The notes: generated by a model from the letters alone, not told the origin. 64,000 nucleotides of DNA from Candidatus Limnocylindria bacterium (GCA_050692055.1 JBOGTC010000075.1:4438-68437); one strand, 5' to 3'. Counted from the first letter of the stretch, positions 56,590 to 64,000 are shown. A program made the numbers and translations.

Positions 56590-57516
56590 TCAGCCGCGAA
56601 ACAGCGTGTCGCCGTGCCACTCGAGGTACTCGGCCGAGGGCGGCGGAGCCGGGGGCAACGGCGAACGGACCGATGCACCCTCGAGGGCGTAGTAGTCGCG
56701 GCCGTTCTCGAACTCCTCGCGGATCCGGCGGCTGACGCGCAGCTCCAGCGACGGCGTGACTGTCACGTAGCCGGCGTCGAACAAGGCGTGGAGGTCCTTG
56801 CGCAGCAGGATCCCGTTCTCGAGCCGATGCGGACCGAGCTCGGCATACGGGCGGATGTGGGCGGCGTCGAGCACCGGCAGCGTCCGCTCACCGGTGACGG
56901 CGCATCTGCGCTGATAGGCGTCGGTCACGAGCAGGCGGAAGGCGCCTTGGCCAAGCCGACGCTGCATCAGCATCGGCGCCCCGTACCGATCCTCTGCGAT
57001 CGCGTGATCGGCCGGAACCCGGTTGGCCAGCGCCAGCTGCACCCGGCTCCACAGGAGCGCCCCCTCACCGATGTCGCTGTCGAACGTCTTGCCCTGCACG
57101 ATGTTCGGCGCCCAGTCGGCAGGCGGCGCGATCCAATCGGCCTGGTCGAGGAAGAACGGCTCGACCAGTACCAGGCAGCCGACCTGGTCGGCGTGGATGT
57201 CAATCTTCGTGCGCCGATATCGGCCGATGCGCGCAACCATCTCCTCGAAGCTGCCCGCGCCGTTCTCGATCCCGAACGTGTCCCACGTCATCCGCACCGG
57301 CAGCGCCGAGTAATGCGCGAAGAACCCACCGCCCACGATCCAGCCACCGTGCGACGCATGGAGCTTGAAGAGGAAGAGCGCGCCAGGCTCCAGCGTCACC
57401 GGCGGCCGCCCGGCGCTCGGCTGCCAGAAGTTGACCTCCGACAGCTCCGGCCTGGCCGAGAGAAACCGGAACCAGTCGTAGTCGGTGATTCCGACCCAGT
57501 AACGCATGGCCCTCAA
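56590..57516 (-). CDS. HNH endonuclease with ~150-aa N-terminal uncharacterised domain (candidate modification-dependent/Type IV restriction endonuclease)
   Basis: C-terminal HNH motif CAVTGERTLPVLDAAHIRPYAELGPHRLENGILLRKDLHALFD. N-terminal domain (MRYWVGITDYDWFRFL...GGWIVGGGFFAHYS) not assigned. Confidence 0.6.
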   Translation of the reverse strand: MRAMRYWVGITDYDWFRFLSARPELSEVNFWQPSAGRPPVTLEPGALFLFKLHASHGGWIVGGGFFAHYSALPVRMTWDTFGIENGAGSFEEMVARIGRYRRTKIDIHADQVGCLVLVEPFFLDQADWIAPPADWAPNIVQGKTFDSDIGEGALLWSRVQLALANRVPADHAIAEDRYGAPMLMQRRLGQGAFRLLVTDAYQRRCAVTGERTLPVLDAAHIRPYAELGPHRLENGILLRKDLHALFDAGYVTVTPSLELRVSRRIREEFENGRDYYALEGASVRSPLPPAPPPSAEYLEWHGDTLFRG

Positions 57517-57542: not shown

Positions 57543-58109
57543 ATGGTAGCCTTGCCGCCAAGCAAGCCACCAATGCCTTGCTCGAGGGGACCAATGCACG
57601 AGCTGCCCGATAGACCATTCGCCCGATACGCCAACGGCGGAGCGGAGCTGCTCGGCATCCCGGCGTGGGGTGACGGGACGGCTCGCGCAGGGTACGGCCG
57701 ACCTGTCTTCGCCGAATGCGGATACCAGTGCGTGTACTGCAGCTTCGACATGGGCGCGCCGTACGAGAACTGGCTGAACCTGTCTGTCGACCACGTCGTC
57801 CCGGAGCACCTCGTGAAGGCCGCCTGGCCGCGCGAGTGGGTGCTCGACCGGATCAACCTGGTCACGTGCTGCCGAGCGTGCAACGAGTTCCTGAATGGCT
57901 ATCGCGTGATCGACCCGACGCCGCCTGCCACCTTCGCCGGCTTCATCGCCGTTCGTGACCGAGTCTTCGACGAGAAGCTGGCTCACGCCCTGAAGCGGCA
58001 CGCCGTCGAACGCGAGCGGTATGTCGCGGGTCGACCTGCCGGCCCGACCGACGTCCAGGAGCAGGTCGCCGAACATGACGTCCAACGCGTACGAGCTGTC
58101 TATGGGTAG
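57543..58109 (+). CDS. HNH endonuclease (McrA-like zinc-finger HNH)
   Basis: CGYQCVYCSFDM...SVDHVVPEHLV...LVTCCRACNEF. Confidence 0.6.
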   Translation: MVALPPSKPPMPCSRGPMHELPDRPFARYANGGAELLGIPAWGDGTARAGYGRPVFAECGYQCVYCSFDMGAPYENWLNLSVDHVVPEHLVKAAWPREWVLDRINLVTCCRACNEFLNGYRVIDPTPPATFAGFIAVRDRVFDEKLAHALKRHAVERERYVAGRPAGPTDVQEQVAEHDVQRVRAVYG

Positions 58110-58199: not shown

Positions 58200-59051
58200 A
58201 TGGCTAGACCAGCGACGATCCGCATCTTCCTGGCGGATGGAACTCCTGAAGGCCTGCGGATCATTGAGAAGTCACTCTGGACCGGTCGCGGGTTCGACTT
58301 TGCGCGCGCGGAGTGGACGAGGGTTCGGTCGAGGGACGATTTTGCTAAGCCAGGCGTGTACGTGCTCTCCGGGCCGGCCGATGACGGAACCACGATCATC
58401 TACGTCGGAGAGGCGGATGAGCTGCGATCCCGCCTCAACCTCCACCACGGCTCGCTCGACTTCTGGACACGAGCGATCGCATTCGTCAGCAAGGACGAGA
58501 ACCTGAACAAGGCTGGCGTCAAGTACCTGGAGTCGCGCCTTGTCGCGCTGGCAACCGATGCAAAGCGGGCGGCTTTGAAGAACGGAAACGTACCCGGCGC
58601 TCCGTTCATGTCGGAAGCCGACCGCGCCGAAGCGGAAGGCTTCCTGGAGGAGATGCTACCGATCTATCCCCTCATGGGCATCACGGCATTCGAGGTCGTT
58701 CAGGTCTCCGCTGCTGACCCTCAATCTGTCCGGCTGCATCTCAATCGCGCCGGAATCGTCGCCTATGGGCGGGATATCGCTGAGGGCTTTGTTGTCGAAG
58801 CAGGGTCAGCCGCGAGAAGCGGCGAAACCAAGGGCTTGCATCAATATGTCCGCACACTGAGATCAAAGCTGTTGGCGGACGGCGTCCTCGTCGCCGATGG
58901 CCCACAGCTCCGCGTCGCGTCCGACTACGTGTTCGGTTCACCCTCCACGGCCGCGGCCGTGATTCTCGGCAGCCCGGCAAACGGCCGGACCGAGTGGACC
59001 GACGAGCAAGGCCGCATGTTGAAGACGATCCAGGAGAAGGCGGCGGAATGA
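58200..59051 (+). CDS. GIY-YIG nuclease domain + DUF4357 protein
   Basis: GVYVLSGPADDGTTIIYVGEADELRSRLNLH (GIY-YIG-like) N-terminus and C-terminal region resembling DUF4357. Family assignment from memory. Confidence 0.55.
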   Translation: MARPATIRIFLADGTPEGLRIIEKSLWTGRGFDFARAEWTRVRSRDDFAKPGVYVLSGPADDGTTIIYVGEADELRSRLNLHHGSLDFWTRAIAFVSKDENLNKAGVKYLESRLVALATDAKRAALKNGNVPGAPFMSEADRAEAEGFLEEMLPIYPLMGITAFEVVQVSAADPQSVRLHLNRAGIVAYGRDIAEGFVVEAGSAARSGETKGLHQYVRTLRSKLLADGVLVADGPQLRVASDYVFGSPSTAAAVILGSPANGRTEWTDEQGRMLKTIQEKAAE

Positions 59052-59115
59052 TCACAACCCATCGGCATCTGCCGTACAGCTTCGAGCGCCCCCCGGAAGT
59101 CGGCGGTTGGCTAGC

Positions 59116-59823
59116 CGATGACGGAGCTGCAGACCAACGTCCTCTACTACGGCGACAACCTCGAGATCCTGCGCCGATACTCCCGGACGCCTCGGTCGAC
59201 CTGATCTACCTCGACGCGCCGTTCAACTCGAACCGCGACTGCTCGCCTTCGAGGACACCTGGCACTGGGGCCCATCGGCCGAGTCGACCTACCGATACCT
59301 GACGAACACGGTCCACCACCAGGGCCGCGTCCCGGACAAGGTCAGCACCATCATCGCGGCGCTGCGCTCAGGGATCGGCTCGAATCAGATGATGGCCTAC
59401 CTCGTCGAGATGGCCGTCCGGCTCGTCGAGCTCCATCGCGTCCTGAAGCCGACCGGCTCGCTCTACCTCCACTGCGACCCTACCGCAAGCCACTACCTAA
59501 AGCTCATTCTCGACGGCGTCTTCGGGCCGCTCAGCTTCCGCAACGAGATCAGCTGGAAGCGATTCAGTGGCAAGAACGATCCCAAGCGGTATGGCCGAAA
59601 TCACGACGTCATCCTCTTCTACAGCAGCCGGACGCATGATCGAGCGGATCACGCAGAAGGTGCGTCACGCAGATGGATACACCGAAATGGAAACACGCGT
59701 AGACCGGGATATCTTGGTGAAGCCGCGGAAGCGGAGGTCGCGACGCCAGAAGGGCACCTCACGATGAGGCTTCACGGCTGGAACAAGTGTGGAGCGGGAG
59801 GAGATCCGGTGTCCAGTTGGTAA
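59116..59823 (+). pseudogene. Degraded N4/N6 DNA methyltransferase (PF01555-type): two frameshifts, internal deletion, mutated DPPF motif, truncated C-terminus
   Basis: My three-frame reading: frame B MTELQTNVLYYGDNLEILRRY. After a -1 shift, LPDASVDLIYLDAPFNSNRD (DAPF instead of DPPF/Y). After a second break, AFEDTWHWG...MMAYLVEMAVRLVELHRVLKPTGSLYLHCDPTASHYLKLILDGVFGPLSFRNEISWKRFSGKNDPKRYGRNHDVILFYS, then non-homologous tail. Track shows it split into ORFs 58994..59302 and 59389..59823. Confidence 0.6.
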
Positions 59824-59848: not shown

Positions 59849-60559
59849 TCAGGCGAGAGCACTAGCGCGGGTCGCTGATGTGAGGTACAGATCTCGGAGC
59901 CTATCTCGCAGTTCGATGCCGCCGTTGGTGATGCAGAGTCTGAGGTGCAGATCTTCCGGAAACTCGGCTACGTGACTCCCAGTCCGAGCCGGCCTGGCCA
60001 CATTCCTTGGCCACGTGCGCATGATCCGGTTAACGGCCGGCTGTATGGCAGGGTCCGAGAATGCAAGTCTTTCGAGCTGCAATAGGTACCACATCGACTC
60101 CAGGTTTCGACTCGCCTCGACGGCCGCTTGCCATGGAGCCGCAAACAAGAGGGCACCGTAATCCATTAGATCGCAGAAGGCCTCGACGCAGTTGCGCGAA
60201 GTGACGCTCAGGTCCAGAAGGCTCGTCGTGTGAAAGAAGTCGTTTCTCCGCGTTCGCCGTATGCGCATCTCGGCCAACAGTGAGGCCACCTCAGTCGAAA
60301 CTTCTGGTCGCTTGGCGTCGATGGCTCCTTGGACATCGGCCTGCACCTCAGCGTAGTTCTTGAATCGCTCCCCGTTTCGCGTCGCCACTGCGTCACGCCA
60401 GTTGCGATCATCGGCGAGTAGGAAGAGCTTGGAGGTCAGCTCGGTGTAGTCATCGCAAAGGATGTAGGCGGTGCGGAGATACTGCCCGCCGGATCTTCCT
60501 GTGAAGTACACCTCAACGCCGGAGCAGATCTCGTCCACCAGATACTTGAGCTGGGTCAC
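59849..60559 (-). CDS. Hypothetical protein with HEPN-like Rx4H motif (RNDFFH), translationally coupled to hsdS; candidate abortive-infection/RNase effector
   Basis: 236 aa. ATG overlaps hsdS stop (ATGA). Lower GC than flanks. Rx4H is the minimal HEPN signature. No further assignment. Confidence 0.4.
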   Translation of the reverse strand: MTQLKYLVDEICSGVEVYFTGRSGGQYLRTAYILCDDYTELTSKLFLLADDRNWRDAVATRNGERFKNYAEVQADVQGAIDAKRPEVSTEVASLLAEMRIRRTRRNDFFHTTSLLDLSVTSRNCVEAFCDLMDYGALLFAAPWQAAVEASRNLESMWYLLQLERLAFSDPAIQPAVNRIMRTWPRNVARPARTGSHVAEFPEDLHLRLCITNGGIELRDRLRDLYLTSATRASALA

Positions 60560-61199
60560 GGGGCGGCTCTAGCTTCGAGGGCAGACAAGAACGTTTGGCG
60601 GGCCTCTTGCCACTCCACGTATGCCTCCGCCATCAAGCGTGCAGCCTCTTGCCTGCGCGCATCGACGCCAGAGGCGATGTCCTCCTGCATGGCGCGGGAT
60701 GGCAAGGGAATGTCCAACGAGCGCACGTCGGTTGCCGAGATCCGAGGGTGCGTGTTCCCGGTCATCATGTGCCGCGTCTGCGCGACGACGAGGGATGATC
60801 GCAGTACCGCGGCGAGATAGCGGCCTGACACGTGGCTCCCCGGTCGGATCCGCAGAACGGCGAACTCCGGGGAGCAGACCCCGGGCTGGTCGGCGAGGTG
60901 CACCTTATTGAGGTAGGGGCGCAATCGACAGAAAAGGATGTCGCCCCGCTCAAAAGCAAGACCAGACGGGGGTACTGGCTCATCCCCTCCAGCGACGAGG
61001 TGCCCGGTCCCGGATTCGACGTTGGCCAAGCCGATGTATCGGGTGCTGTCCGAGGTGGTCGAAACCACGCGCACCAGGTCTGCGACTTCGACGAGTGGGA
61101 CGACGCGGACTCCTCGAGCGTGCGCAGAGCGCATGGACTCGACTGCTGTTAGTCGTTGGGGGTGGAAGAACGGCGCGTCGAGCCGGTTTGACCGTGCGA
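60556..61199 (-). pseudogene. hsdS: Type I restriction-modification specificity subunit HsdS, C-terminal half (TRD2 + C-terminal conserved helix), separated from its N-terminal half by IS insertion
   Basis: GVRVVPLVEVADLVRV...PEFAVLRIRPG...LDIPLPSRAMQEDIASGVDARRQEAARLMAEAYVEWQEAR typical of HsdS. Confidence 0.6.
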
Positions 61200-61204
61200 C
61201 TAGG

Positions 61205-62237
61205 TGTCGTTCCCACTTAGATCGTTGACAGACTGAGAGCCCTCGTGCTCGGTTTGGGGTTGTTGAAGCTCCACACCGAGGGAGGGCTCTCATGCTCCAT
61301 CGTACCGCCAAGCTGACGCCGTATGGGAGGCGGCTACTGGTCGAGCGGGTCCTGGTCGAGGGGTGGTCGCCGGCGATCGCGGCTGAAACGCTCGGCGTGA
61401 GCCGAGCCACCGCCTACAAGTGGCTGCGCCGCTACCGAGCCGAGGGCGTGGCCGGGCTCGAGGATCGCTCGGCACGACCGCAGCGCCGGCCACGTTCGCT
61501 GCCGGAGCGCGAGGTGCGCCGCATCCTCCGCCTTCGTCGTCGGCTGCGGGTCGGGCCGCACCGGCTCGGCCCGCTGCTCGGCCACCCGCGCTCGACGGTC
61601 TACGGCGTGCTGCGCCGTCATGGCGTGAGCCGCTTGGCCCACGCTGATCGTCTGACCGGCGTGCCGCTGCGCTACGTGCGCGAGCGGCCCGGAGAACTGA
61701 TCCACGTCGACGTCAAGCGGCTGGGTCGGGTACCCGACGGCGGTGGCCACCGCATGCTCGGCCCGGGCGCACGTCGCGACCGAGGCGCGGGGTACGACTA
61801 CCTGCACGTCGCCATCGACGACGCCACCCGGCTCGCTTTCATCGGCGTCCATGCCGACGAGCGGGCCGCCACCACGGTGCGCTTCCTGCGCGACGCGGTC
61901 GCCTTCTTCGCCGACCACGGCATCCGGGTCGAGCGGGTCATGACCGACAACGCCATGACCTACACCCAGTCGCGTCAGCTGGCAGCGCTGTTCGCGGCCT
62001 CAGGCATTCGCCACCTGCGCACCCGTCCGCGGCGGCCACAGACGAATGGCAAGGCCGAGCGTTTCATCGGCACCCTGCAGCGCGAGTGGGCCTACGCCCG
62101 TCTGTTCCGCTCGAACGCCGAACGCCTGGCGTCGCTGCCGCGCTGGCTCGAGACCTACAATCGACGGCGTCCCCATGCCGCGCTGGGTGGCCTCAGTCCG
62201 CTGACCGTGCTTGTCAACAAGCTCGGTGGGAACGACA
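61205..62237 (+). mobile_element. IS481-family insertion sequence (1033 bp) with ~27-bp imperfect terminal inverted repeats, flanked by CTAGG duplication
   Basis: Left end gTGTCGTTCCCACttagatcGTTGACA. Right end TGTCAACaagctcgGTGGGAACGACAg. Flanks aCTAGG|...|gCTAGG consistent with the NCTAGN 6-bp target duplication known for IS481. Confidence 0.75.
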
Positions 62238-62242
62238 GCTAG
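61292..62242 (+). CDS. IS481-family transposase (DDE, rve integrase core)
   Basis: 316 aa. N-terminal HTH, HVDVKRL...D...E rve-type catalytic core, IS481-typical LHRTAKLTPYGR N-terminus. Confidence 0.85.
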   Translation: MLHRTAKLTPYGRRLLVERVLVEGWSPAIAAETLGVSRATAYKWLRRYRAEGVAGLEDRSARPQRRPRSLPEREVRRILRLRRRLRVGPHRLGPLLGHPRSTVYGVLRRHGVSRLAHADRLTGVPLRYVRERPGELIHVDVKRLGRVPDGGGHRMLGPGARRDRGAGYDYLHVAIDDATRLAFIGVHADERAATTVRFLRDAVAFFADHGIRVERVMTDNAMTYTQSRQLAALFAASGIRHLRTRPRRPQTNGKAERFIGTLQREWAYARLFRSNAERLASLPRWLETYNRRRPHAALGGLSPLTVLVNKLGGNDS

Positions 62243-62243
62243 G

Positions 62244-62995
62244 CAGGCGGCCACGCGGTAGCCGCGCAGCCTGTGAGGCGGTGTGTCTATAACACCCAGG
62301 TGCGCGTCGACTAGATGGTCCACTTCGGTCATGACACGCGCTGCGATTGTCCGCTTGTCGTCACGCCGCAAGCGCGCGTCCCGATAGGCATCCGCGAGAC
62401 GGCGCTGTTCCGCCACGGATGGCAGCGGGACGACGAGCGAGCGCAGCTCCGACACATTGATGTTGGCCATCCCGGCTATTCGCCGGCTCACCAGACGAAG
62501 CTGCTCGCGTCCGCCCGTGTTGACGAAAGCCGAGAGATAGTCCGGCTCAGCCTTGGTTCGATCGACCTGCAGTCGAAGGAGATACGAGGCGAAGACCCAC
62601 TCACCATCAAGATCGAAGACGGCACTCTTCCCAACGAGCTCCTGAGAATTCGTCCGGTTCACGAGAACATCGCCCCGCGAGAGGACAAATCGCTCGAGGA
62701 CGGAATCGTCAATGCGAACGAACTTCACGTCCGAGACGTCCATGCCGTCGTCGCGAAGGTTATTCATACGAAGGATCGGAATGCCGGGTCTATGATTGCT
62801 GGCGCGCACGGAAAGCCCGTACTGAATGCGGTGAACCAGTGCTCCCAGTTCGAGGACCGGGAATCGCCACCTGTTGCGGCCGGCCGGAGTCCGCTGCGAT
62901 AACACGAATGCCGGATCAGCACGGGTGCGTAGAGAGCGGGCGGGAACACGGAAGGCGACCGGCTGACGTAGAGGACTACTAGCCGGCAACAGCAT
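62244..62995 (-). pseudogene. hsdS: HsdS N-terminal half (TRD1 + central conserved region), disrupted by the IS481 element
   Basis: RFPVLELGALVHRIQYGLSVRAS...VVPLPSVAEQRRLADAYRDARL typical of HsdS. 5' boundary uncertain. Confidence 0.55.
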
Positions 62996-64000
62996 GACCG
63001 TGGTAGAGATCGGCAATGGCCGGCAAGTCGTTGTCCGTCTCGCGGCCTGTAGCGTCGTACCCAACGAAGTCTGCGATGGCCATGAATACGTCCTCGTCCT
63101 CTTCCGCTCGCTCCGCCTCGTCGCGGCGCCGGACAAAGACGAAACTCGACTTCACGCCAGCCCCAAAATGCGAGAAGGCCGTAGCGGGCAGGCTCACAAC
63201 CGCGAGTACTTGGAAGCGCTCGAGAAGGAAGTCACGGACGTACTGGAGTGATGCATTCGTCAAGATTCCGTCCGGTAGGATGATTCCCGCGCGTCCTGTG
63301 CCCGGCTTCAGGAACTGCCACACCCGCTCGATGAAGAGCACCTCGGTCCGCTGTGATTTTCGCGGAGTGTCGCGCCCGGACTTGGACGGCATCCTGCCCA
63401 GTTCGAAAGTCGAGAGATGGGGTCGCTGCGCCAGGGTTACCTGGGCGCCAAAGGGAGGATTGGTGAGGATTAGGTCGAAGCGACCCGGCGAGAGACCGGG
63501 GTTCTTCTGCTGCAGCTGGCTGAGTGGAAGCAAGGCATCCGAACCAACTATGTTCGAGTGACCGTCGTCGTGAATGATCATGTTCATCTTCGCCACGCGG
63601 GTCAGCTCGTCGTTTATCTCGACCCCATATAGGTTGCGCGTCCCAAAGTCGTGCCAGTGCCGAAAATGCTGAGGCGTATCGGCTTGGTGGTACGCGTCCG
63701 CCTCTTTCCTCACCGCATCCAAGGCGTACAGCAGAAAGCCCCCTGAGCCACATGCTGGGTCCAAAACGATGTCATCGCTGGTTGGCTGCAGGATGTCGAT
63801 CGCGAACTGGATCAGGTCACGCGGCGTGAAGTACTGCCCGAAGTCGCCCTTGAAGAAGTTGTCGACGAACTGCTCGAATGCAACGCCTTTGATGTCCAGG
63901 TCCGTTTCCGATAGATTGACGCTCTCGAGGTGGGAGACGACGTTCCTCAGGGTTGCATCGTCGATCTTGATCGTATCGGTGAAGACGTCGGGTTCTCGCT
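62979..64000 (-). CDS. hsdM: Type I restriction-modification DNA methyltransferase subunit HsdM (3' part; gene continues past window end)
   Basis: NPPFG motif IV, LDPACGSGGFL motif I. My translation of 63765-64000 continues in frame (…FTPRDLIQFAIDILQPTSDDIVLDPACGSGG), so the track ORF start at 63764 is an artefact. Confidence 0.8.
   Translation of the reverse strand, partial: REPDVFTDTIKIDDATLRNVVSHLESVNLSETDLDIKGVAFEQFVDNFFKGDFGQYFTPRDLIQFAIDILQPTSDDIVLDPACGSGGFLLYALDAVRKEADAYHQADTPQHFRHWHDFGTRNLYGVEINDELTRVAKMNMIIHDDGHSNIVGSDALLPLSQLQQKNPGLSPGRFDLILTNPPFGAQVTLAQRPHLSTFELGRMPSKSGRDTPRKSQRTEVLFIERVWQFLKPGTGRAGIILPDGILTNASLQYVRDFLLERFQVLAVVSLPATAFSHFGAGVKSSFVFVRRRDEAERAEEDEDVFMAIADFVGYDATGRETDNDLPAIADLYHGHAVAG

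What the first reader, a model, noticed from the sequence alone, without database searches (positions are those of the whole stretch)
59849..60559. Uncharacterised 236-aa protein with Rx4H (HEPN-type) motif, start-stop overlapped with hsdS
Genes wedged into Type I restriction-modification operons next to hsdS are classically abortive-infection effectors (for example PrrC and RloC anticodon nucleases). This ORF carries an RNDFFH motif matching the minimal HEPN RNase signature. It has lower GC than its surroundings and shares ATGA coupling with hsdS. It has no obvious similarity to known families by eye. It is a plausible novel restriction-modification-linked toxin/Abi module.
Basis: inference. 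Interest (0 to 1): 0.65.

Follow-up and report, generated by a model that had tools for sequence, protein, structure and literature searches.

The report
HEPN-like add-on to restriction enzymes
This 236-residue gene is real and belongs to an unannotated family with the fold and catalytic motif of HEPN RNA-cutting toxins; the family always sits directly after the DNA-specificity gene of a restriction system, so it is probably a back-up suicide or RNA-attack arm of that system.

Summary
The ORF (59849-60559, minus strand, 236 aa) is a real, strongly conserved gene. It has no match in Pfam, NCBIfam, PADLOC or PHROGs. More than 200 homologues exist, nearly all in uncultured bacteria from many phyla.

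R105, N106 and H110 of RNDFFH are invariant in 163 aligned homologues, as are D36 and K44 on helix 2. A confident AlphaFold model places the motif at the end of helix 3 of a four-helix bundle. Every PDB match with TM above 0.4 is a HEPN domain, although the Foldseek E-values are not significant.

The neighbouring system is not Type I. It is a BcgI/BsaXI-like Type IIB pair: a nuclease-methylase fusion plus an S subunit, with no HsdR. Here an IS481-family element has split the S gene.

Close relatives always lie in M-S-X operons, usually with an (A/G)TGA stop/start overlap. Remote relatives lie either in such operons or in genuine hsdM-hsdS-X-hsdR operons, the slot PrrC occupies. Four of six closely related M-S pairs lack X, so it is an optional add-on.

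Best reading: a new HEPN family acting as a PrrC/Ronin-like effector attached to the methylase-specificity core. The activity and the trigger are inferred, not shown.

The parts
59849..60559 (-). X: a 236-aa HEPN-like protein with a GTG start. Residues 1-140 form the HEPN-like bundle: helix 1 = 2-20; helix 2 = 28-50, carrying D36/D37/E40/K44; an insert made of a beta-hairpin (57-66) and a helix (69-83); helix 3 = 85-110, ending in R105-N-D-F-F-H110; helix 4 = 121-139. Residues 141-236 form a family-specific helical C-terminal domain.
   Evidence: ORF. 219 homologues. Invariant residues. AlphaFold models with pLDDT 92.5 and 95.3. HEPN fold matches.
60556..61203 (-). C-terminal part of the specificity (S) subunit gene (second target-recognition domain and conserved region). 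Its TGA stop overlaps the GTG start of X. The mechanical ORF 60556..61410 runs on into the insertion sequence.
   Evidence: Weak Methylase_S hit. tblastn to S of L003, residues 178-389. ORF restored after removing the IS in silico.
61204..62238 (+). IS481-family insertion sequence (1035 bp) splitting the S gene. Transposase ORF 61292..62242. Imperfect terminal inverted repeats. CTAG target duplication at 61200-61203 and 62239-62242.
   Evidence: LZ_Tnp_IS481, rve and rve_3 domains. Inverted repeat I1. Junction sequences. Deleting the IS plus one CTAG copy gives one continuous S reading frame.
62243..62995 (-). N-terminal part of the S gene (first target-recognition domain). The start codon is uncertain; the ATG at 62995 would overlap the end of M.
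   Evidence: tblastn to S of L003, residues 1-161. Reconstructed ORF. Sequence.
62979..64000 (-). 3' part (340 codons) of the M gene, which encodes a restriction-modification fusion. The full protein is 610 aa in the source contig: an N-terminal PD-(D/E)xK nuclease domain (HSDR_N_2) plus a gamma-class N6-adenine methylase (DPACGSGGF and NPPF motifs). It runs off the window end.
   Evidence: Translation. N6_Mtase and Eco57I hits. Full gene and domains in L004. Invariant nuclease motif in 12 orthologues. Best solved relative is RM.BsaXI.

Best explanation
X is the founding member seen here of an undescribed HEPN-fold family. It is an optional third component that attaches to restriction enzymes built on a methylase2-specificity1 core.

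Shown: it is a conserved gene. It has a HEPN-like four-helix bundle with an intact R-N-x3-H motif and a conserved acidic/lysine face on helix 2. It is always encoded directly after an S-subunit gene, usually with overlapping stop and start codons. It occurs with two different nuclease architectures: the Type IIB-like nuclease-methylase fusion and the classical Type I HsdR.

Inferred: X is made together with S and docks on the M2S core through its family-specific C-terminal domain. In that state it is held latent as a metal-independent RNase, probably acting as a dimer like other HEPN enzymes. When a phage disables or overwhelms the restriction complex (for example with a DNA mimic or an Stp-like peptide), X is released or activated. 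It then cuts tRNA, rRNA or mRNA, stops translation and aborts the infection. This is the logic of PrrC with EcoprrI and of RonA with HsdMS.

In this particular genome an IS481-family element has split the S gene, so the system is probably crippled even though X itself is intact.
For: Real and conserved: 219 homologues at E<=1e-3, 50-62% identical across Chloroflexota, Planctomycetota, Acidobacteriota, Armatimonadota, Verrucomicrobiota, Bacteroidota, cyanobacteria and others. The exhaustive search found 95 cluster representatives.

Catalytic signature: R105, N106 and H110 are invariant in 120 close and 43 diverse homologues, together with D36, K44 and W54; E40 and R101 are nearly invariant. The same D[DE]xxELxxK and R[RH]xxRNxF[FY]H signatures occur in the remote clade.

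Fold: pLDDT 92.5 (full length) and 95.3 (residues 1-140). The topology fits the published HEPN description: motif at the end of helix 3, acidic residue on helix 2, insert between helices 2 and 3. Foldseek of the N-terminal domain gave 2hsb HEPN (TM 0.59/0.64, rmsd 3.8, prob 0.87), HepT 6m6u (0.54/0.57), Csm6 5yjc and 6tug (0.50-0.58) and sacsin HEPN 3o10 (prob 0.77). No non-HEPN hit exceeded TM 0.35.

Linkage: in 18 close loci the only conserved genes are M, S and X; no HsdR or other fourth gene is conserved. An (A/G)TGA overlap is present in 14 of 15 evaluable loci. Remote relatives are true homologues (hhalign 99.8%, E 5.6e-28). They lie either in nuclease-methylase fusion-S-X operons or in hsdM-hsdS-X-hsdR operons.

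Optional add-on: of six M homologues 65-69% identical to the window's M, two have X and four do not. In one of those four a different pair of genes, including a weak TIR-like protein, fills the slot.

Precedents: PrrC is held inactive by EcoprrI and released by Stp (PMC3710099). RonA is sequestered by HsdMS and triggered by Ocr, ArdA or Aop1 (bioRxiv 10.1101/2023.04.06.535777).
Against: No biochemical or genetic data exist for any member; RNase activity, toxicity and the trigger are all inferred.

No sequence profile links X to any described HEPN family. One of 43 members hit HEPN_Cthe2314 at E=0.023, about what chance gives.

X has no ATPase or other obvious sensor domain of the kind that regulates PrrC.

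This genome tolerates an intact X next to a broken S gene. So free X is either not constitutively lethal or is not expressed here.

A few loci carry broken copies of X (L020, L021, L030, L055, L057).
Confidence: 0.5

Rival explanations
1. X is an integral, non-toxic subunit of the restriction enzyme. It would act as a helical adaptor that helps (RM)2S units assemble or activates DNA cleavage, much as BcgI needs higher-order A2B assemblies and BsaXI needs its extra helical 'knob' and 'paddle' elements.
For: Overlapping stop and start codons with S suggest co-translation and a fixed stoichiometry. X is about as conserved as M, while S varies. BcgI must recruit extra protomers to cut (PMC3592470). 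BsaXI needs additional helical elements for cleavage, and the 610-aa M here lacks them (PMC11997821).
Against: Four of six M-S pairs with 65-69% identical M have no X. X occurs with two unrelated nuclease arrangements, the fusion and HsdR. The invariant residues are those of an RNase active site (R, N, H plus an acidic residue), not a surface patch. Neither Foldseek search against the PDB (top 50 hits listed in each) returned BsaXI.
Confidence: 0.13
2. X is an RNase effector switched on directly by target recognition. When the M2S core binds unmethylated foreign DNA it activates X, so the system attacks DNA and RNA together rather than acting as a guard against anti-restriction proteins.
For: The fold, motif and linkage evidence is the same as for the best explanation. 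Activation rather than release would explain why X is tolerated next to a broken S gene in this genome.
Against: There is no precedent among M2S-based systems: PrrC and RonA are both released from inhibition. The nuclease motif of M is strictly conserved, so DNA cutting is already provided. Nothing in the sequence data separates this rival from the guard model.
Confidence: 0.15
3. X is a HEPN domain used for binding or regulation rather than as a toxin. For example it could be a nucleotide-binding or RNA-binding regulator, or an RNase that tunes the operon's own mRNA so that methylation precedes restriction after transfer to a new host.
For: Some HEPN domains are non-catalytic binding modules (PMC3710099). 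A fused nuclease-methylase cannot be timed by separate transcription, so a post-transcriptional control would be useful (inference only).
Against: Non-catalytic HEPN domains usually lose the R or H, whereas here both are invariant along with N106. Many close M-S pairs manage without X. X also sits in Type I operons, which have separate R genes.
Confidence: 0.07

Closest known systems
PrrC anticodon nuclease with the Type Ic system EcoprrI (and RloC)
   Same: Both carry a HEPN-type Rx4-6H nuclease domain and are encoded inside a restriction operon. Remote X relatives sit between hsdS and hsdR, the slot prrC occupies. PrrC is kept latent by the restriction complex and released when phage T4 Stp blocks it (PMC3710099). 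X is proposed to follow the same logic.
   Different: PrrC and RloC have a large N-terminal ABC-ATPase regulatory domain. X is 236 aa with no ATPase and no detectable sequence similarity to them. The window's partner is a Type IIB-like fusion enzyme without HsdR. The targets and trigger of X are unknown.
Ronin (RonA with HsdM-HsdS, no HsdR)
   Same: An effector gene is tightly linked to hsdS and hsdM in a locus lacking hsdR. The effector is sequestered by the M-S complex and set off by anti-restriction proteins.
   Different: RonA is a 61-aa predicted membrane peptide, whereas X is a soluble 236-aa HEPN-like protein. Ronin's M-S acts as a decoy. The M here keeps an intact nuclease motif and methylase motifs, so it is probably a working restriction enzyme.
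HEPN superfamily: HEPN-T (AF_0298, PDB 2hsb), HepT toxins of MNT-HEPN pairs (6m6u, 5yep), Csm6 HEPN domains
   Same: Four-helix up-down bundle, R-N-x3-H at the end of helix 3, a conserved acidic residue on helix 2 and an insert between helices 2 and 3. These are the best structural matches.
   Different: No sequence-profile match to any Pfam HEPN family. X has no partner nucleotidyltransferase or CARF domain. It has its own roughly 95-residue C-terminal helical domain with conserved WPRN and PEDLHLRLC motifs.
Restriction-linked stand-alone HEPN families predicted by Anantharaman et al. 2013 (solo AbiJ, ApeA, AbiU2, pEK499_p136 and others)
   Same: These are small HEPN proteins embedded in restriction-modification neighbourhoods and proposed as second-line RNA-targeting defence.
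   Different: X matches none of the Pfam models derived from those families. Its linkage is specifically to the S gene, with overlapping codons, and spans both Type I and Type IIB-like systems. I could not check that paper's supplementary lists for X relatives.
Type IIB restriction-modification enzymes BcgI and BsaXI (for the neighbouring M and S genes)
   Same: One polypeptide carries an N-terminal PD-(D/E)xK nuclease, a helical connector and a gamma-class N6-adenine methylase, alongside a separate two-domain S subunit. RM.BsaXI is the best solved relative of M (E 2.6e-39, against 8e-23 for Type I HsdM).
   Different: BcgI and BsaXI are two-gene systems. A subset of the family here has X as a third gene. 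M here lacks the BsaXI knob and paddle. Cutting on both sides of the site is untested.

Membership tests
HEPN superfamily | Conserved Rx4-6H motif with a polar residue (N, D or H) right after the arginine | tested here: met
   R105-N106-D-F-F-H110. R105, N106 and H110 are invariant in 120 close and 43 diverse homologues, and the motif is present in remote operon relatives.
HEPN superfamily | [quoted passage not shown] | tested here: met
   Models with pLDDT 92.5 and 95.3: helices 2-20, 28-50, 85-110 (ending at H110) and 121-139, with an insert at 57-83. The definition is taken from PMC3710099.
HEPN superfamily | Conserved acidic residue on helix 2 next to the motif | tested here: met
   D36 is invariant and E40 nearly invariant on helix 2, spaced i/i+4/i+8 with K44. 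Their proximity to the motif in 3D was not measured because no coordinates were available.
HEPN superfamily | Structural similarity to solved HEPN domains | tested here: inconclusive
HEPN superfamily | Metal-independent RNase activity, usually as a dimer with a composite active site | not testable with these tools
   Needs biochemistry. No multimer prediction tool was available.
Any already described HEPN family (Pfam HEPN models, NCBIfam, PADLOC, PHROGs) | Significant sequence-profile match | tested here: not met
   No hit at E<=0.1 for X. Among 43 diverse members there was a single HEPN_Cthe2314 hit at E=0.023, which is chance level. No PDB sequence hit.
PrrC/RloC anticodon nucleases | N-terminal ABC-type ATPase domain fused to the nuclease domain | tested here: not met
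   X is 236 aa with no ATPase family hit and is all-helical in the model.
PrrC/RloC anticodon nucleases | Gene embedded in a Type I operon beside hsdS (PrrC) | tested here: inconclusive
   Met for remote X relatives, which lie in hsdM-hsdS-X-hsdR operons. Not met for the window clade, where there is no hsdR and M is a nuclease-methylase fusion.
Type I restriction-modification (for the neighbouring genes) | Separate HsdR motor-nuclease subunit and an HsdM with the HsdM_N domain | tested here: not met
   No HsdR is conserved in 18 close loci. The source contig has a ribonucleotide reductase gene upstream of M. M carries HSDR_N_2, not HsdM_N.
Type IIB restriction-modification (BcgI/BsaXI-like, for the neighbouring genes) | Single polypeptide with an N-terminal PD-(D/E)xK nuclease and an N6-adenine methylase, plus a separate Type I-like S subunit | tested here: met
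   HSDR_N_2, N6_Mtase and Eco57I domains. Invariant PD..D..ECK motif. DPACGSGGF and NPPF motifs. Best solved relative is RM.BsaXI at E 2.6e-39. The S gene has two recognition domains once the IS is removed.
Type IIB restriction-modification (BcgI/BsaXI-like, for the neighbouring genes) | [quoted passage not shown] | not testable with these tools
   Needs enzyme assays.
Ronin | Small (about 61 aa) membrane-helix effector RonA linked to hsdM-hsdS without hsdR | tested here: not met
   X is a 236-aa soluble helical protein. Only the operon logic is similar.

The most novel reading that the evidence does not exclude
X defines a portable, ATPase-free HEPN RNase cassette recognisable by its coupling to the S gene. 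It docks on the shared methylase2-specificity1 core of both Type I and Type IIB restriction enzymes and adds an RNA-cutting suicide arm that fires when phage anti-restriction proteins hit that core. It would be the first such guard described for Type IIB enzymes. It would also suggest that the gene slot after S in these operons is a swappable effector position; one locus carries a TIR-like gene there instead.
Probability: 0.4. Interest if true: 0.65.

Novelty: new member of a known kind. Interest (0 to 1): 0.5.

Why it matters
Only two effectors that use the methylase-specificity core as a sensor have been studied experimentally: PrrC and RonA. A third, unrelated effector family would show that this guard strategy is a general design rather than a curiosity. 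This family occurs in many phyla and rides on two different restriction architectures.

It also gives a compact three-gene system that is easy to test. The questions are concrete: does a Type IIB enzyme carry an RNase partner, and do Ocr- or ArdA-type inhibitors set it off?

On the practical side, genome annotation and defence-system finders currently label these loci simply as Type I methylase plus S and miss the third gene entirely.

Tried and rejected
Searches that found nothing:
- Pfam, NCBIfam, PADLOC and PHROGs on X and on remote members gave no usable hit.
- Profile searches of PDB sequences with the close and the diverse alignments gave only noise.
- Foldseek of the full-length model against the PDB and against viral structures gave nothing meaningful. 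Only the isolated N-terminal domain gave HEPN matches.
- tblastn of X against the plasmid and phage collections found no match, so there are no annotated records to lean on.
- The promoter and terminator scan around X found nothing.
- Literature searches for HEPN with BcgI, Type IIB or hsdS found no description of this family.

Ideas considered and rejected:
- X corresponds to the extra C-terminal knob and paddle of BsaXI's longer subunit. There was no structural match.
- The locus is a MADS system. M and S hit mad2 and mad5 only as generic methylase and specificity similarity, far weaker than the Type I and Type II models, and X hits no mad model.
- X is a shadow ORF. The conservation rules this out.
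- A conserved fourth gene exists in the window clade. None was found.

Full report
**The observation.** The ORF at 59849..60559 on the minus strand encodes 236 residues from a GTG start. RNDFFH lies at residues 105-110 and is the only Rx4H in the protein. On its own the motif means little: 28% of shuffles of this protein contain an Rx4H, 63% an Rx4-6H and 1.1% an RNx3H. GC in the ORF (about 0.60) equals that of the rest of its operon and the adjacent defence genes (0.59-0.64). This whole island is lower than the backbone at 0.66-0.72, while the inserted IS is 0.71.

**A real, conserved, unannotated family.** X has no Pfam, NCBIfam or PHROGs hit, and only a meaningless PADLOC hit. The word-indexed search found 219 homologues. 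The best 120 are 50-62% identical and about 220-245 aa long. Where named at all they are called 'hypothetical protein', and they come from many phyla, almost all as metagenome-assembled genomes. The identical protein is recorded from a Candidatus Limnocylindria genome. The exhaustive search found 95 cluster representatives, reaching down to about 25% identity and including longer forms of 250-350 aa. There is no match in the plasmid or phage collections.

**Conserved residues.** In 120 close homologues, E10, E16, R22, D36, D37, E40, K44, W54, K67, R105, N106, F108, F109, H110, G194 and D203 are invariant. In a set of 43 spanning the whole family, D36, K44, W54, R105, N106 and H110 remain invariant, and E40, R101, F108 and F109 are nearly so.

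**Fold.** AlphaFold2 with the 120-sequence alignment gave pLDDT 92.5 and pTM 0.89. The protein is all-helical apart from one beta-hairpin. The published description of HEPN domains (PMC3710099, read) specifies:
- a four-helix up-down bundle;
- frequent inserts between helices 2 and 3;
- a conserved acidic residue on helix 2 near the motif.

The model fits every point. Helix 1 is 2-20. Helix 2 is 28-50 and carries D36, E40 and K44 on one face. The insert is a hairpin at 57-66 plus a helix at 69-83. Helix 3 is 85-110 and ends at H110. A loop spans 111-120, and helix 4 is 121-139.

**Fold searches.** Foldseek of the full model against the PDB found nothing; the best hit had E 0.28 and TM about 0.2. 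I then modelled residues 1-140 alone (pLDDT 95.3) and searched again. Every hit with TM above 0.4 was a HEPN domain:
- AF_0298, PDB 2hsb (TM 0.59/0.64, rmsd 3.8 Å, probability 0.87);
- HepT, 6m6u (0.54/0.57);
- Csm6, 5yjc and 6tug (0.50-0.58);
- sacsin HEPN, 3o10 (probability 0.77);
- 1wwp and 5yep.

**The neighbours are not a Type I system.** In the source contig (L004) the gene upstream of S encodes a 610-aa protein with HSDR_N_2, N6_Mtase and Eco57I domains. Beyond it lies a ribonucleotide reductase gene, with no HsdR. The window holds only the last 340 codons of this gene, including the DPACGSGGF and NPPF methylase motifs. Twelve orthologues share an invariant PD..D..ECK nuclease motif. 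The best solved relative is the Type IIB enzyme RM.BsaXI (E 2.6e-39, against 8e-23 for a Type I HsdM). The layout of nuclease, helical connector and methylase plus a separate S subunit is that of BcgI-type Type IIB enzymes (PMC3592470 and PMC11997821).

**The S gene is split here.** An IS481-family element occupies 61204..62238, with its transposase at 61292..62242. It has terminal inverted repeats and CTAG on both sides. Deleting the element and one CTAG copy in silico restores a single continuous S reading frame. The insertion therefore looks clean and recent, and the restriction system is probably crippled while X remains intact.

**Linkage in close relatives.** Eighteen loci carrying close X relatives were compared: 16 species genomes plus look-ups. 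The only genes conserved around X are M, S and X, in that order and on one strand. All 13 loci with enough upstream sequence have M, and no fourth gene is conserved. M is 58-67% identical between loci and X 44-61%, while S varies as specificity subunits do. The S stop and X start overlap as (A/G)TGA in 14 of 15 evaluable loci, and by one or four bases in the fifteenth. Two further loci have gaps of two to three bases.

**Linkage in remote relatives.** A metagenome scan with the remote clade returned 36 loci. This clade is a true homologue of the window clade: hhalign probability 99.8%, E 5.6e-28 over 205 columns. The loci fall into two operon types:
- Twelve have a 650-755-aa HSDR_N_2 plus N6_Mtase fusion, then S, then X.
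- The others are genuine Type I operons. HsdM (HsdM_N plus N6_Mtase) is followed by HsdS (Methylase_S), then X of 320-356 aa, then a roughly 990-aa HsdR (HSDR_N, SWI2/SNF2-ResIII and T1R_D3 domains).

Both types keep D[DE]xxELxxK and R[RH]xxRNxF[FY]H. The constant feature is therefore an S gene immediately upstream of X, whichever nuclease the system uses. In the Type I operons X occupies the slot that prrC occupies in EcoprrI.

**X is optional.** I searched for homologues of M (7933 at E<=1e-30). I then looked up six of them, 65-69% identical to the window's M and chosen without knowledge of X. Two loci have M-S-X (L064 and L067). Three have M-S, or an M-S fusion, with no trace of X by tblastn (L062 from Mycobacterium sp. 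IS-1556, L065 and L066). One (L068) has a different 113-aa ORF overlapping the S stop, followed by a weak TIR-like protein. A component missing from most of its closest chassis relatives is an accessory, not a core subunit.

**Mechanism.** The shown parts are the fold, the intact catalytic-type residues, the obligatory S linkage and the optional status. The rest is inference by analogy. PrrC is held latent by EcoprrI and freed when T4 Stp blocks the enzyme. RonA is sequestered by HsdMS and triggered by Ocr, ArdA or Aop1. DNA mimics and similar inhibitors act on the methylase-specificity core, and Type I and Type IIB enzymes share that core. This would explain why one effector family serves both. 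I therefore propose that X docks on the core through its own C-terminal domain and stays latent. It would become an active RNase when the core is disabled or overwhelmed, stopping translation.

**Rivals and open points.** The main rivals are an RNase activated directly by recognition of unmethylated DNA, an integral structural subunit, and a regulatory or binding role. The intact X beside a broken S in this genome shows that free X is either not constitutively lethal or not expressed. This mildly favours activation over simple release but does not decide the matter. Several loci carry broken X copies (L020, L021, L030, L055, L057).

**Novelty.** HEPN genes inside restriction operons were predicted as a class in 2013, and PrrC is a classic case, so the kind is known. 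This family is absent from every library searched and from the papers I could find. Its strict S coupling and its presence in Type IIB-like systems appear undescribed. I could not check the 2013 paper's supplementary lists. I rate it a new member of a known kind, of moderate interest.

Noticed in passing
window 61204-62238 (transposase 61292-62242, + strand): An IS481-family insertion sequence has landed at a CTAG inside the S gene, with CTAG duplicated on both sides. Removing it in silico restores one continuous S reading frame, so the insertion is clean and probably recent.
   Followed up: yes
window 58200-59051 (+): A 283-aa protein with a C-terminal DUF4357 domain gives a very strong match to the PADLOC candidate defence family PDC-S14 (E 4e-92). 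Weak UvrC N-terminal hits hint at a GIY-YIG-like nuclease. It lies next to the M-S-X operon, so this stretch is a small defence island.
   Followed up: partly
window 58994-59302 and 59389-59823 (+): Two ORFs in different frames carry pieces of an N4/N6 DNA methylase: a DAPF motif in the first and an N6_N4_Mtase hit covering only profile positions 27-107 of 221 in the second. It looks like a frameshifted, decaying methylase gene converging on the end of X.
   Followed up: partly
window 56590-57516 (-) and 57543-58109 (+): Two divergently arranged HNH-type proteins. The first matches HNH_2 and, below threshold, the phosphorothioated-DNA-binding restriction endonuclease model. The second has weak HNH and PtuB-like hits. 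These are more probable defence genes in the same island.
   Followed up: no
L027, L032, L037, L044 and others (for example L027 6526-13990): Remote relatives of X (320-356 aa, with a long insert after helix 2 and a C-terminal coiled-coil-like tail) sit between hsdS and hsdR of complete Type I operons.
   Followed up: yes
L068 7215-8531: In one close M-S relative the slot after S holds a 113-aa ORF whose start overlaps the S stop, followed by a 283-aa protein with a weak TIR_2 match (E 1.4e-4, below Pfam's cut-off). This may be an alternative effector in the same position.
   Followed up: partly
L062 3823-9197: In Mycobacterium sp. IS-1556 a close M-S pair without X lies directly beside phage capsid, cement and protease genes, as if carried on a prophage or satellite.
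   Followed up: no
L021 9080-10423; L020 2126-2717; L030, L055, L057: Several loci carry broken X genes. L021 has an insertion of about 550 bp between residues 100 and 98 of the two halves. L020, L030 and L055 have frameshifts. L057 has a truncation in an otherwise near-identical copy of L051.
   Followed up: no
L001 6717-8004; L012 8511-10004; L021 7787-9161; L065 6001-8502: In some relatives the S function is naturally encoded as two half-size genes, or as a half-S fused to M. Split S subunits may therefore be functional in this family, which bears on whether the IS-split S in the window is truly dead.
   Followed up: no
L004 1226-5425 (outside the window, upstream of M in the source contig): A 1399-aa ribonucleotide reductase gene carrying an intein with a LAGLIDADG endonuclease domain lies just beyond the M gene.
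   Followed up: no
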